A DNA stretch of 11,631 bases from Promethearchaeota archaeon (GTDB lineage: Archaea; Asgardarchaeota; Lokiarchaeia; Sigyniarchaeales; SOKP01): the NCBI GenBank assembly GCA_016839585.1, contig JAEOTZ010000063.1, forward strand, positions 1 through 11,631, read 5' to 3'. A program made the position numbers and the translations under genes. Below the pieces are notes generated by a model. That model worked only from the letters and a program-made list of their open reading frames with translations. It did no database searches and was not told the origin of the DNA. Positions within the stretch are counted from its first letter, which is position 1. The number at the start of each line of letters is the position of its first letter. Positions 2,011 to 10,730 of this stretch are shown here, piece after piece.

Positions 2011-3093
2011 TTATTTAAATTCCTTCAAATATAATCTGTCATTATCTTGAGAAATTTTTGAATAATTAGAGAGGAAATCTAACATGAATTTTCTTTCAGA
2101 CTCATTCTGGGTTTTTGATAATCTAATTTGAAATTCAAGGTCTTTTTCATTTTCAATAGAAATCCAGTGCAATTTTTCAAAAAATCTTAAAATACATAAA
2201 AGAAACTCTTCTTGAGTACCAAAATTTTTAATTTCATTTTGTATTAAATTTATCCATTTTTCTCCGACATTTTTATTACTAAAGTTTATGATAATATCTT
2301 TATCTTCAGCCATTTTCATCCAAAAATAATAAGTCCTGTCATTAAGAATTCTATAATAATTTGTAAGGAAAGAGAGATTATGCTCGATAAGTTTAAACCT
2401 TTCTTTTTTAGCAATATCTTTTCTAAAAAGTAAATCTGTTTCTTTTAAATCAAATCTACAATATAATTCCGTATCTGAAAATGTAACGTCTGTGATTTTT
2501 GCACCTAATATACCAAACACAGCGGCATTTAATTTGCAATTTTCGAGAAAGAGATTTTTGTAAGTCCCAATAAATTCGAAAATACCGCTAGCATAGTGCG
2601 AATTTTTAGTTGCGAAAATATCTAGTTTCATTTCTTTTGTTAAATTGTTAGCTAAAAAAAAAGTTTTTATCCTATTAAACATATTTTTTAGTTCCTCATA
2701 ATCTTTTGGCCTTACACCTGTTATAAACATCCTTCTTATTGCAAATAAAAAACGAGGTACTTGTTTAAATCTGAATGTAGTATATCTATTTGCTCTAACA
2801 GCCATCTCATGAAATGGGATAATACCTCTAAATGTGAATTGATCGAAGAAGTTCATTGTTTGACTATCGACAAATCTTTCAAAATCATCGAGAGTCTTTC
2901 CTTTCTCAAAGCAATCCATTGATTTTTCCATGACATAATTGTAAAATGATGAAATACTAGTAAATCTCTTATCTTCAGGATCTTTTCGATGATTTACATT
3001 TACATACCTTTCAATCCAGTCTTTAAGGGCAGGGGATATTGATATTGTTTGTTGAGCTGTCTTTTTATTCGATAAATATTTTCTTGAAGTCAT
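2011..3093 (-). CDS. Hypothetical protein, 360 aa, possible N-terminal ribbon-helix-helix-like DNA-binding domain
   Basis: Long ORF with ATG start in AT-rich DNA. N-terminal QQTISISPALKDWIERYV...FTSISSFYNYVMEKSM has the strand-helix-helix pattern of RHH proteins. The remainder is not recognised. Confidence 0.85.
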   Translation of the reverse strand: MTSRKYLSNKKTAQQTISISPALKDWIERYVNVNHRKDPEDKRFTSISSFYNYVMEKSMDCFEKGKTLDDFERFVDSQTMNFFDQFTFRGIIPFHEMAVRANRYTTFRFKQVPRFLFAIRRMFITGVRPKDYEELKNMFNRIKTFFLANNLTKEMKLDIFATKNSHYASGIFEFIGTYKNLFLENCKLNAAVFGILGAKITDVTFSDTELYCRFDLKETDLLFRKDIAKKERFKLIEHNLSFLTNYYRILNDRTYYFWMKMAEDKDIIINFSNKNVGEKWINLIQNEIKNFGTQEEFLLCILRFFEKLHWISIENEKDLEFQIRLSKTQNESERKFMLDFLSNYSKISQDNDRLYLKEFK

Positions 3094-8325: not shown

Positions 8326-9027
8326 ATGATAAATATTGAAATTCGAAATCATCCAAAATTTTATAATGTCTATATATCAGGACCTCAAGAAAACTTAAAA
8401 CTCTATACTAAAAATTTAACTTTAGGGAATAGAGTGTATGGGGAGCGATTAATTAATTATAAGGGGATTGAATACCGAGAATGGGATCCCTTTAGGAGTA
8501 AGCTGGCAGCTATATTATTAGAAAAACCTATTACTAGCTTTTTAAATAGTAACTTAAAATGTTTGTATTTAGGAGCATCATCAGGAACAACAATTTCTCA
8601 TCTTTCAGATATTATTCATGACGGAATAATTTATGGCATAGAATTTGCGGAACGAAGTATGAGACAACTAATTCAAAATACGACTATAAGAGCAAATATT
8701 GTACCGATATTAGGAGATGCTCGGTATCCAGAGTCTTACTCAAATTCAATATTTACCGATATAGATCTAATTTATCAAGATGTTTCTCAACCAAATCAAG
8801 CTGAGATTGCTATTTTTAATTCAAATTATTATTTAAATGATGAAGGTACAATCATAGTAGCTATAAAATCTCAATCAATAGATAGTATTACTAAATCAGA
8901 AAAAATTTATAGACGTGAGAGAGATATTTTTGAAAAATCTGGTTATAAGATAATAGAAAGTATAAATATTCATAGATATGCTGCTAATCACATAGTTTTA
9001 ATAGTGAAGAAAAAGGGAATTAGTTAA
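8326..9027 (+). CDS. flpA: Fibrillarin-like rRNA/tRNA 2'-O-methyltransferase
   Basis: VYGERL, YREWDPFRSKLAA, LYLGASSGTTISHLSDI, YGIEFA, NIVPILGDAR, IYQDVSQPNQ. ATG 8326 preferred; TTG 8305, overlapping the nop5 stop, is the alternative. Confidence 0.97.
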   Translation: MINIEIRNHPKFYNVYISGPQENLKLYTKNLTLGNRVYGERLINYKGIEYREWDPFRSKLAAILLEKPITSFLNSNLKCLYLGASSGTTISHLSDIIHDGIIYGIEFAERSMRQLIQNTTIRANIVPILGDARYPESYSNSIFTDIDLIYQDVSQPNQAEIAIFNSNYYLNDEGTIIVAIKSQSIDSITKSEKIYRRERDIFEKSGYKIIESINIHRYAANHIVLIVKKKGIS

Positions 9028-9748
9028 AATATTCAGTAATTTTTCTATTCTCTACTTCTTCATTTAAGATTTTTTTTGTTGTATTCCATGATTTCCTGGC
9101 AAACTGAGGGGGTTTTTTATTTTTTTTAATCCAATCTCTGAGGAAATCTGTCGTTTTTATATCAGAAGGATAACCAGAGCCAAAATCACCAAACTTTTCT
9201 TTCAATTCTTCTATTAAATTATCTCTTATATCCTTTGCAATTATTGAACTTGCCGAAACTATAGGATAGGTATCATCAGCTTTATGTTTAGAAATAATTT
9301 GCCTTGGCATATATTCCAATAACTTTCTAATTGATTCTCCGAATCTTTCTTCATTGACATCCGCAGCATCGATATATATACTATCTGGTTTTAAATCATT
9401 TATAATCTCAGCAAATTTTAATTCTTCAAGTCTGTTCATAGAAATATTTCTCTCTTTTCTCTGATCGATCTCCTTAGCACTAATTACTATAACTTTATAA
9501 GAATGACAACTGTCTTTTATTGCTTTAGCTAATTCACTTCTTCTTTTAGTGGATAATTTTTTAGAATCCTTAACACCAATTTTAGATAAAAAATCTAATT
9601 TTGACCCATTAAAACAAACACCACATAAAACCATTGGACCTAAGACGGGCCCTTTTCGCATATAATTCGAATTGAACTATATTCTACCAGCCTCGTCTAT
9701 ACCACAAACTATATCTAATTCTTTATTATGATTCTTGGATGAGTTCAA
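9020..9748 (-). CDS. rnhB: Ribonuclease HII, interrupted by a 30-nt putative intron: complement(join(9020..9653,9684..9748))
   Basis: Exon 1 reads MNSSKNHNKELDIVCGIDEAG(R), from TTG 9748 with GAGGA 5 nt upstream (in-frame ATG 9766 is the alternative). Exon 2 reads GPVLGPMV...GVKDSKKLS...YIDAADV...HKADDTYPIVSASSIIAKDIRD...GSGYPSD...RKSW. The joined product is 232 aa with all catalytic carboxylate motifs. The ORF-track version from ATG 9661 lacks DEAG. Confidence 0.93.
9654..9683 (-). other. Putative bulge-helix-bulge (BHB-like) mRNA intron in rnhB
   Basis: - strand: GAC GAG GCT GGT AG|AATATAGTTCAATTCGAATTATATGCGAAA|A GGG CCC GTC. In-frame TAG at 9679-9677, a 9-bp internal stem, and two 3-nt bulges offset by a 4-nt helix. 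Removal restores DEAGRGPV. Confidence 0.8.
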
Positions 9749-10730
9749 TGAATTCCTCTTCGTCATCAATTTCTTCTAAATTTTTAATTCTAACAATAGG
9801 AACTTTATTTTTCAAGAAAGTATCTGGGATTTTAATATTGTTATTTACTATGAAGAGCGCAATTTTATGAAATAAGTCAGTAAACATTTTTAAACATATA
9901 GGATTTAGCTGTTTAATCTTGTTTTGATCTTCGCTAATTCCTGAAAAAAGAGGATAAAAACCTTCTATTTTAGACCTGTCAGTTTTGGAATATAAGGATA
10001 ATTTAAACGGGATAGAGCCTTTTTTATACCAATAAGAAGAAATTCCAATATCTTCGAATATTGATTGAACATGAGATTCAAAATCACTTAATTCGCTCTC
10101 CTCCATAAAAGCACATTGATCTATTTCATATTTGAATTTCCAGTCAAAAATATTGATTTTTTTAAAAACTTCACTATCTTCTAAAATGCTTTTAATATTT
10201 TCAGCTACTTTTTCAGAAGGATGCATACTTTCATTTTCATAAGCACATACAGTTCTTTTTGTGACTCCAAGTTTTTCTGATAATTCTTTTCTCGATATTG
10301 ATTGCTTTTCTCGCAGGGTTTTCATCAAATTACCATTTACAAATACAATCCCTCCCCCTCTCTTAGCAAGTATATAAGGATATATATTTTCCTCTAAGAT
10401 CTTTTCTAAAGTATTAAAAGTTATAAACGGCAATCCATTTCTAATATAAATAGTGTCATCTTCTAGTTTTTGATATCGATTCCTAATTCCAATTAATAGT
10501 GGCTTCGATTTTAGTATTAAGGATAAAGATTTAATATCATTAATTGTGTCGGGATTTATATTATCAATATTCGAGACAATTTTTAAGCTAAAAATTAAAT
10601 CATTCTTTTTGACTAATATATCAAAACAGAATTTGTTTTTTTTTGAGGAAAAATTGTCTAAAGCAAATGTCTCGAAATTTTCCTTCTTAAATAAAATATT
10701 AATTTTCTGAAGAATCTGATCGATCATCAA
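9726..10730 (-). CDS. Archaeal Xre-HTH transcriptional regulator (COG1395-like)
   Basis: N-terminal CFDILVKK...LKIVSNID...PLLIG...LEDDTIYIRNGLP, then AKRGGGIVFVNG and the HTH LREKQSISRKELSEKLGVTKRTVCAYEN. Start is TTG 10730 or ATG 10727. Confidence 0.88.
   Translation of the reverse strand: MMIDQILQKINILFKKENFETFALDNFSSKKNKFCFDILVKKNDLIFSLKIVSNIDNINPDTINDIKSLSLILKSKPLLIGIRNRYQKLEDDTIYIRNGLPFITFNTLEKILEENIYPYILAKRGGGIVFVNGNLMKTLREKQSISRKELSEKLGVTKRTVCAYENESMHPSEKVAENIKSILEDSEVFKKINIFDWKFKYEIDQCAFMEESELSDFESHVQSIFEDIGISSYWYKKGSIPFKLSLYSKTDRSKIEGFYPLFSGISEDQNKIKQLNPICLKMFTDLFHKIALFIVNNNIKIPDTFLKNKVPIVRIKNLEEIDDEEEFIELIQES

What the first reader, a model, noticed from the sequence alone, without database searches (positions are those of the whole stretch)
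9654..9683. Candidate BHB-type intron splitting the catalytic motif of RNase HII
Seen: on the - strand the frame reads ...VCGIDEAGR-[I*FNSNYMRK]-GPVLGPMV..., so 30 extra nt with an in-frame UAG sit inside the conserved DEAGRGP motif, while the rest of the gene is intact. The RNA can fold as UGGU (9689-9686), bulge AGA (9685-9683), stem AUAUAGUUC (9682-9674), loop AAUUC, stem GAAUUAUAU (9668-9660; 9 bp with one G-U), GCGA (9659-9656), bulge AAA (9655-9653). The central helix UGGU/GCGA gives U-A, a G-G mismatch, G-C and U-G, so the motif is relaxed rather than perfect. Established: archaeal EndA cuts after the second nucleotide of each 3-nt bulge and RtcB ligates the exons; the classic archaeal mRNA intron of this type is in crenarchaeal cbf5. 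Applying that rule (AG|A and AA|A) removes exactly 30 nt and gives GGU AGA GGG CCC = G-R-G-P. Inference: rnhB mRNA is spliced by the tRNA splicing machinery. I know of no described rnhB intron, and gene callers would hide it by starting at ATG 9661.
Basis: partly seen in the sequence, partly recalled or inferred. Interest (0 to 1): 0.95.

Follow-up and report, generated by a model that had tools for sequence, protein, structure and literature searches.

The report
tRNA-type intron in Asgard RNase HII
The only RNase HII gene of this Loki-type Asgard archaeon is interrupted by a 30-base hairpin of the kind archaea cut out of tRNAs; 78 genomes of its family carry an insert at the same spot and one RNA-library contig lacks exactly those 30 bases, so the mRNA is very probably spliced, which the papers I could search document for the coding part of only one other archaeal gene.

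Summary
Confirmed. rnhB (minus strand, single copy) of a Promethearchaeota genome carries a 30-nt insert (9683-9654) with an in-frame UAG, inside the Arg codon of DEAGRGP. A same-site insert is in 78 of 121 family genomes (8 genera; 28-31 nt). Every insert has a stop; four also shift the frame. The stem and exon-intron helix covary. Only the EndA rule (cut after the second bulge base) restores the motif in all 78. Exon 2 is under purifying selection; two EndA paralogues and RtcB are present. One contig of a metatranscriptome-labelled run (98% identical, depth 3; the tool flags the run 'probably DNA') lacks exactly these 30 nt while keeping intron-type flanks. All intronless DNA alleles of close relatives have recoded flanks, and 28 of 28 DNA contigs with these flanks keep the insert. 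The motif is relaxed here (one G-G pair; 3.4 kcal/mol above the minimum fold). EndA cleavage is untested. In print I found only cbf5 and a Haloferax 5'-UTR intron. This scan noted the same rnhB intron before on other DNA; new here are the junction contig, the fixed cut register and a short-patch allele swap.

The parts
9654..9683 (-). 30-nt BHB-type intron, between bases 2 and 3 of the Arg codon of DEAGRGP
   Evidence: (30 nt left out in run X19)
9684..9766 (-). rnhB exon 1 (from ATG 9766; TTG 9748 is an alternative start); encodes ...CGIDEAG plus AG of Arg, including the first two catalytic acidic residues; its first 41 nt overlap the end of the upstream HTH gene
   Evidence: the intronless relative P0132 is called from the equivalent ATG
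9020..9653 (-). rnhB exon 2 (third base of Arg, then GPVLGP... to the stop); rest of the RNase HII domain
   Evidence: PF01351 E 4e-45; dN/dS 0.06-0.25 against 32 intron-bearing relatives
9686..9689 (-). Central helix, exon strand (UGGU: third base of Ala plus the Gly codon)
9683..9685 (-). 5' bulge AGA; predicted cut AG|A between 9684 and 9683
   Evidence: three relatives have AG|T here, which fixes the cut
9660..9682 (-). Intron hairpin: 9-bp stem 9682-9674/9668-9660 with a 5-nt loop; holds the in-frame TAG (9679-9677)
   Evidence: (8 of 9 pairs with changes on both sides)
9656..9659 (-). Central helix, intron strand (GCGA; G-G mismatch at 9688/9657 in this strain)
   Evidence: 58 of 78 inserts have 4 of 4 pairs, 20 have 3 of 4
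9653..9655 (-). 3' bulge AAA; predicted cut AA|A between 9654 and 9653
   Evidence: middle base free (A, C, T, G), last base always A or G so that the Arg codon is kept
9643..9698 (-). Imperfect exon-exon outer helix (9698-9690 with 9652-9643)
   Evidence: minimum-energy fold and alignment fold, columns 4-11 with 51-58
9659..9661 (-). Intron-internal ATG at which gene callers start a 213-aa product lacking the catalytic Asp-Glu

Best explanation
The 30 nt are an intron in the rnhB messenger RNA. The pre-mRNA folds an intron hairpin plus a 4-bp exon-intron helix between two 3-nt bulges (a relaxed bulge-helix-bulge). The cell's two-subunit tRNA splicing endonuclease EndA cuts after the second base of each bulge, and RtcB joins the exons, rebuilding the Arg codon (AG + A) and a full RNase HII of about 232-238 aa. 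Unspliced message stops two codons into the insert. Shown: insert, conservation, covariation, cut register, enzymes present, one joined contig. Inferred: that the joined contig comes from RNA, that EndA and RtcB do the work, and the fate of the excised piece.
For: 78 of 121 family genomes have an insert at exactly this site: 74 of 30 nt, two of 29, one of 28, one of 31; all contain a stop. First stop of the 30-mers is TAA 60, TAG 8, TGA 3. BHB structure on 67 distinct sequences: 90.4% of cells paired, 10 of 14 pairs with changes on both sides; slid controls 28-40%. Exon-intron pair 4 is U-G, C-G, G-C or U-A in 77 of 78. Only the cut after bulge base 2 gives A-G-R/K-G in 78 of 78; the next register gives Ser in three genomes. 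Single rnhB in a 99%-complete genome; exon 2 dN/dS 0.06-0.25. Two EndA paralogues and RtcB. Run X19: contig over 9611-9890 with 4 other letters and exactly 30 nt left out at 9653; none such in DNA runs X5 and X7 at depth 44 and 54. Joined form with these flanks: 0 hits in metagenome assemblies; with the insert: 28 of 28. Intronless DNA alleles of close relatives differ at 12-18 of 60 flank bases, the X19 contig at no more than 1. GAPDH in the same genome has a similar 30-nt insert.
Against: The RNA evidence is one contig at depth 3 from a run that the tool marks 'RNA? (probably DNA)'; contigs give no strand or level. In this strain the central helix has a G-G mismatch and the BHB form is 3.4 kcal/mol above the minimum fold (median 5.5 across relatives); the alignment fold does not recover the central helix by itself. 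Genomes are related, so the covariation counts are not independent events. No cleavage assay. Intronless alleles exist in close relatives (L246, about 96% identical), so an unseen intronless DNA allele cannot be excluded.
Confidence: 0.93

Rival explanations
1. The insert stays in the mRNA and the ribosome passes it, by stop read-through or by a hop of the T4 gene 60 type.
For: A stop sits at the second codon of the insert in 64 of 71 30-mers, inside a hairpin, loosely like a bypass signal (own knowledge); 74 of 78 inserts keep the frame.
Against: All three stop codons occur and some inserts have two; four inserts shift the frame. Take-off and landing codons do not match (AGA or AGT against AAA, ACA, ATA). 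Exon-intron helix covariation and the fixed cut register fit EndA geometry. The joined contig lacks the 30 nt.
Confidence: 0.02
2. The real product is the 213-aa protein from the intron-internal ATG 9661, as annotated, with a non-catalytic role; the upstream motif is a relic.
For: Gene callers and NCBI give this product; an in-frame ATG, GTG or TTG lies in 49 of 74 inserts.
Against: 25 of 74 inserts have no such start. It lacks the residues aligned to Asp7 and Glu8 of PDB 1io2 (catalytic role from own knowledge). DEAG is kept upstream of the stop in 78 of 78, and the genome has no other RNase HII. The UG of the ATG is part of the paired region.
Confidence: 0.02
3. The insert is removed at the DNA level in some cells or strains (a tiny mobile or unstable element), and the X19 contig is such DNA; carriers have no RNase HII until it is lost.
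For: X19 is flagged 'probably DNA'; presence is patchy, with at least 6 changes on the tree.
Against: No precise DNA-level loss was seen: intronless alleles of close relatives have recoded flanks and 0 of 28 DNA contigs with intron-type flanks lack the insert. No target duplication beyond one base. Carriers keep exon 2 under selection at dS above 1.
Confidence: 0.02
4. Pseudogene or assembly artefact.
For: In-frame stop in a metagenome-assembled genome.
Against: Same insert in independent DNA runs and in 78 genomes; dN/dS 0.06-0.25; single copy.
Confidence: 0.005

Closest known systems
cbf5 pre-mRNA intron of Desulfurococcales and Sulfolobales (Watanabe 2002; Yokobori 2009, PMC2738675)
   Same: Short intron in a coding sequence with a BHB-like, often relaxed motif; predicted cuts between bulge bases 2 and 3; host with a two-subunit EndA; placed in a catalytic motif so that splicing is needed; lost in some lineages; mis-annotated by gene callers.
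   Different: Different gene (rnhB, an RNA-DNA hybrid and ribonucleotide-repair nuclease) and lineage (Asgard). It sits in a conserved Arg codon (phase 2), not in the codon of the catalytic Asp (phase 1). cbf5 splicing was shown by cDNA and in vitro cleavage; this one rests on comparison and one contig. The same genome has at least one more such insert (GAPDH).
BHB intron in the 5' UTR of Haloferax volcanii HVO_1309 (PMC7714728)
   Same: mRNA cut by the tRNA splicing endonuclease at a BHB; similar size (46 nt).
   Different: Untranslated region, so it does not interrupt a reading frame; cleavage shown in vitro.
Archaeal tRNA introns, abundant in Asgard archaea (bioRxiv 10.64898/2026.10.13.758758)
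   Same: Same motif, size range and enzymes; two EndA paralogues as in 44 of 60 Asgard genomes there; repeated gains.
   Different: That paper treats tRNA genes only ('mRNA' and 'cbf5' do not occur in its text); here the substrate is an mRNA and the exon half of the motif is held by codon choice.

Membership tests
Archaeal BHB (EndA-type) intron | 4-bp central helix formed by the 5' exon and the intron's 3' end | tested here: met
   3 of 4 pairs in this strain (relaxed); 4 of 4 in 58 and 3 of 4 in 20 of 78 inserts; compensatory changes at pairs 1 and 4
Archaeal BHB (EndA-type) intron | Two 3-nt bulges on opposite strands flanking the central helix | tested here: met
   AGA and AAA spacing is kept in all 78 regardless of insert length; slid pairings fall to 28-40%. 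Structure inferred from sequence, not probed
Archaeal BHB (EndA-type) intron | Splice sites after the second nucleotide of each bulge | tested here: met
   Only this register restores A-G-R/K-G in 78 of 78; the X19 gap is compatible with it
Archaeal BHB (EndA-type) intron | Flanking helices: intron stem and exon-exon helix | tested here: met
   9-bp stem 88% paired; exon-exon helix present but imperfect: first pair C-G in all, second G-G
Archaeal BHB (EndA-type) intron | Host encodes the splicing endonuclease and RtcB | tested here: met
   PF01974 twice, PF01139 once; one paralogue shows the Tyr, His, Lys motifs and the other lacks the His, read by eye
Archaeal BHB (EndA-type) intron | Exons joined in RNA but not in DNA | tested here: inconclusive
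   One joined contig in a metatranscriptome-labelled run flagged 'probably DNA'; none in DNA runs or assemblies
Archaeal BHB (EndA-type) intron | Cleavage by EndA in vitro or dependence on EndA in vivo | not testable with these tools
   Needs an assay
RNase HII (PF01351) | Family profile match and the acidic motifs DEAG, DAAD-like and KAD | tested here: met
   the intronless near relative P0132 aligns end to end with PDB 1io2 and 2dfh; exon 2 motifs read
Group I or group II self-splicing intron | Catalytic RNA core of well over 100 nt | tested here: not met
   28-31 nt only; no Rfam match in the window

The most novel reading that the evidence does not exclude
In these Asgard archaea tRNA-type splicing of protein-coding mRNAs is routine (rnhB, GAPDH and further genes noted by the scan). 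The marginally stable, relaxed BHB makes RNase HII output depend on EndA/RtcB activity as a regulatory gate, and the intron is gained or lost between close relatives by recombination of a 40-60-nt patch, not by reverse transcription of spliced mRNA.
Probability: 0.3. Interest if true: 0.9.

Novelty: new member of a known kind. Interest (0 to 1): 0.76.

Why it matters
Published work that I could search documents endonuclease splicing of an archaeal coding sequence only for cbf5. An rnhB intron across a whole Asgard family, with a second one in GAPDH of the same genome, suggests that mRNA splicing by the tRNA machinery is an ordinary part of gene expression in the closest prokaryotic relatives of eukaryotes. 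It parallels the RtcB-dependent XBP1/HAC1 splicing of eukaryotes (own knowledge). It gives a small, defined substrate that can be tested in vitro. In practice, public databases hold these RNase HII proteins truncated and without two catalytic residues, so Asgard gene inventories are affected.

Tried and rejected
1) Alternative register (helix GGUA/UGCG, bulge GAA): would remove 28 nt and not restore the frame; all registers from -6 to +4 were tested and only -1 fits every insert. 2) Run X20 (RNA on record) did not cover the junction: no information. 3) The search of 5.8 billion proteins found no full-length protein with the family's G-S variant (68 full-length, all G-P); the closest full-length hits proved to be intronless alleles with recoded flanks, not spliced forms. 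4) A de novo genome-wide scan for BHB inserts in coding frames gave no excess over shifted controls (37 against 31-45; two earlier versions timed out), so I give no count of mRNA introns in this genome. 5) cbf5-like gene (PF01509) in this genome: open frame of 337 aa without stops, so no sign of the classic intron. 6) Asgard phylum sample: stops inside the match only in family f1 among the listed matches (27 not listed; inserts without a stop not examined); 54 non-Asgard loci had no insert. I did not test the scan's notes on DPANN. 7) Literature searches for an rnhB intron or Asgard mRNA introns found none; most subscription journals are not covered. No paper for the RNase HII catalytic residues was retrieved, so that point rests on own knowledge. 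8) Promoter and Rfam scans were uninformative. 9) Direction of the patch swap (gain in this lineage or loss in L246) could not be fixed from the tree (L070 and the short regions were left out).

Full report
Observation. On the minus strand the RNase HII frame reads GIDEAGR, then 30 extra bases with TAG at 9679-9677, then GPVLGP. Removing 9683-9654 gives one open frame of 238 codons from ATG 9766 to 9020. The 9-bp hairpin is in the minimum-energy fold (z -2.68). The ORF caller starts at ATG 9661. The neighbours are ordinary: HTH and HTH-CBS genes upstream, fibrillarin and Nop5 converging from the other strand. The closest named records are Promethearchaeota (Loki-type Asgard) MAGs, and the DNA occurs in marine sediment runs. 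This is the only PF01351 match in a 99%-complete genome.

Not an artefact, not a dead gene. DNA contigs from two other studies span the site with the insert, at depth 44 and 54, none without it. Of 121 family genomes whose junction I read, 78 have an insert at this site (8 of 13 genera) and 43 have none. Lengths are 30 (74), 29 (2), 28 (1) and 31 (1). Every insert contains a stop, and the first stop of the 30-mers is TAA, TAG or TGA in different genomes. Exon 2 has dN/dS 0.06-0.25 against 32 carriers, most at dS above 1. DEAG is kept upstream of the stop in all carriers. Other families of the order and class had no insert in the 18 loci read, and a phylum sample showed stops only in this family among listed matches.

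Structure. Related genomes inflate the shuffle test, so the pattern matters more than the counts. The pair between the third base of the Gly codon and the intron is U-G, C-G, G-C or U-A in 77 of 78. The central helix has four pairs in 58 and three in 20 inserts; this strain's G-G mismatch is a shared minority state. Codon choice in the exons is narrowed in carriers: Glu GAG 73 of 74 against 27 of 43, Gly GGA 0 of 74 against 18 of 43. The motif is relaxed: the BHB form lies 3.4 kcal/mol above the minimum fold here, median 5.5 in relatives, and the alignment fold recovers the hairpin and exon-exon helix but not the central helix.

Cut sites. In this window two registers give the same product. 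Across the family they do not. Three genomes have AGT in the 5' bulge, and the middle base of the 3' bulge is free while its last base is always A or G. Only a cut after the second base of each bulge restores A-G-R/K-G in 78 of 78. That is the rule reported for EndA on cbf5 (PMC2738675). The genome has two EndA paralogues and RtcB, and ARAGORN finds only 18 tRNAs, 11 called with introns, in line with intron-rich Asgard tRNAs.

RNA evidence. Run X19 (labelled metatranscriptomic, flagged 'probably DNA' by the tool) has one contig over 9611-9890, depth 3, with four other letters and exactly 30 bases left out at 9653, equivalent to 9654-9683. I tested whether this could be an intronless DNA allele. 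Such alleles exist close by: L246 (GCA_019057915.1) is about 96% identical over 2.5 kb yet differs at 17 of the 60 exon bases round the junction; L059 differs at 18 and L213 at 12. Three of X19's four differences lie at 9803, 9837 and 9876, so its flanks are of the intron type. The joined form with intron-type flanks has no hit in metagenome assemblies, whereas 28 of 28 hits with these flanks carry the 30 bases. The contig is therefore best read as cDNA of spliced mRNA, but it is a single low-depth contig.

Mechanism. Shown: insert, conservation, covariation, register, enzymes. Inferred: EndA captures the relaxed BHB, cuts at 9684/9683 and 9654/9653, and RtcB ligates to rebuild AGA. Exon 1 carries the residues aligned to Asp7 and Glu8 of PDB 1io2 (catalytic role from own knowledge), so neither the 29-residue unspliced peptide nor the annotated 213-aa product should be active. 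Whether splicing is regulated is unknown. Read-through, hopping, the truncated product, DNA-level excision and pseudogene are each 2% or less, for the reasons listed under rivals.

History. The exon 2 tree needs at least 6 changes, and this strain's clade mixes carriers and non-carriers. The short recoded patch in L246 points to exchange by recombination; loss through reverse-transcribed mRNA would leave the flanks unchanged. Direction is unresolved, and an assembly chimera in L246 is not excluded.

Comparison and novelty. It works like the cbf5 intron and meets every sequence-testable feature of EndA-type introns; joining in RNA is inconclusive by a strict standard and cleavage is untested. 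In print I found only cbf5 and the Haloferax HVO_1309 5'-UTR intron, and no rnhB or Asgard mRNA intron. Earlier notes of this scan report the same rnhB intron in other genomes and BHB inserts in other genes of this genome; these are unchecked AI notes and not independent support. I confirmed one in the sequence: a 30-nt insert with stops in GAPDH. My own genome-wide scan was uninformative. Verdict: a real BHB-type mRNA intron, confidence 0.93; new member of a known but very rare kind; interest 0.76.

Noticed in passing
L246 (GCA_019057915.1, JAHLWM010000097.1) against window 9641-9730: A near-identical relative (about 96%) lacks the intron and differs at 17 of 60 exon bases only round the junction: a 40-60-nt recombination patch. 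Direction (gain here or loss there) unresolved.
   Followed up: partly
   Followed up: partly
L003-L035, first codons of exon 2: Most carriers in this genus have G-S instead of G-P after the intron (35 of 74 carriers against 1 of 43 intronless); the Ser codon improves exon-exon pairing, so the RNA structure may have changed a conserved residue.
   Followed up: partly
window 9679-9677 and relatives: The stop falls on the second codon of the insert in 64 of 71 30-mers although the codon varies; may reflect selection for early termination of unspliced message or just the AU-rich stem.
   Followed up: no
window 9726-9766: The probable rnhB start (ATG 9766) overlaps the last 41 nt of the upstream HTH gene; some relatives have a stop in this stretch and start a few codons before DEAG. 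The X19 contig runs across both genes.
   Followed up: partly
P0002, P0012, P0039 and others: NCBI annotates 212-213-aa 'ribonuclease HII' proteins that start inside the intron and lack the catalytic Asp-Glu.
   Followed up: yes
whole genome G000: ARAGORN finds only 18 tRNAs in a 99%-complete genome, 11 called with introns; many multi-intron tRNAs are probably missed.
   Followed up: no
window 2011-3093, minus strand: 360-aa ORF without a Pfam match, between a GatE-like gene (2-1858, identified by eye) and ELP3.
   Followed up: no
G239, G245, G251 (family f26): The RNase HII N-terminal match spans about 12 nt more than expected, without a stop; probably a small protein insertion.
   Followed up: no
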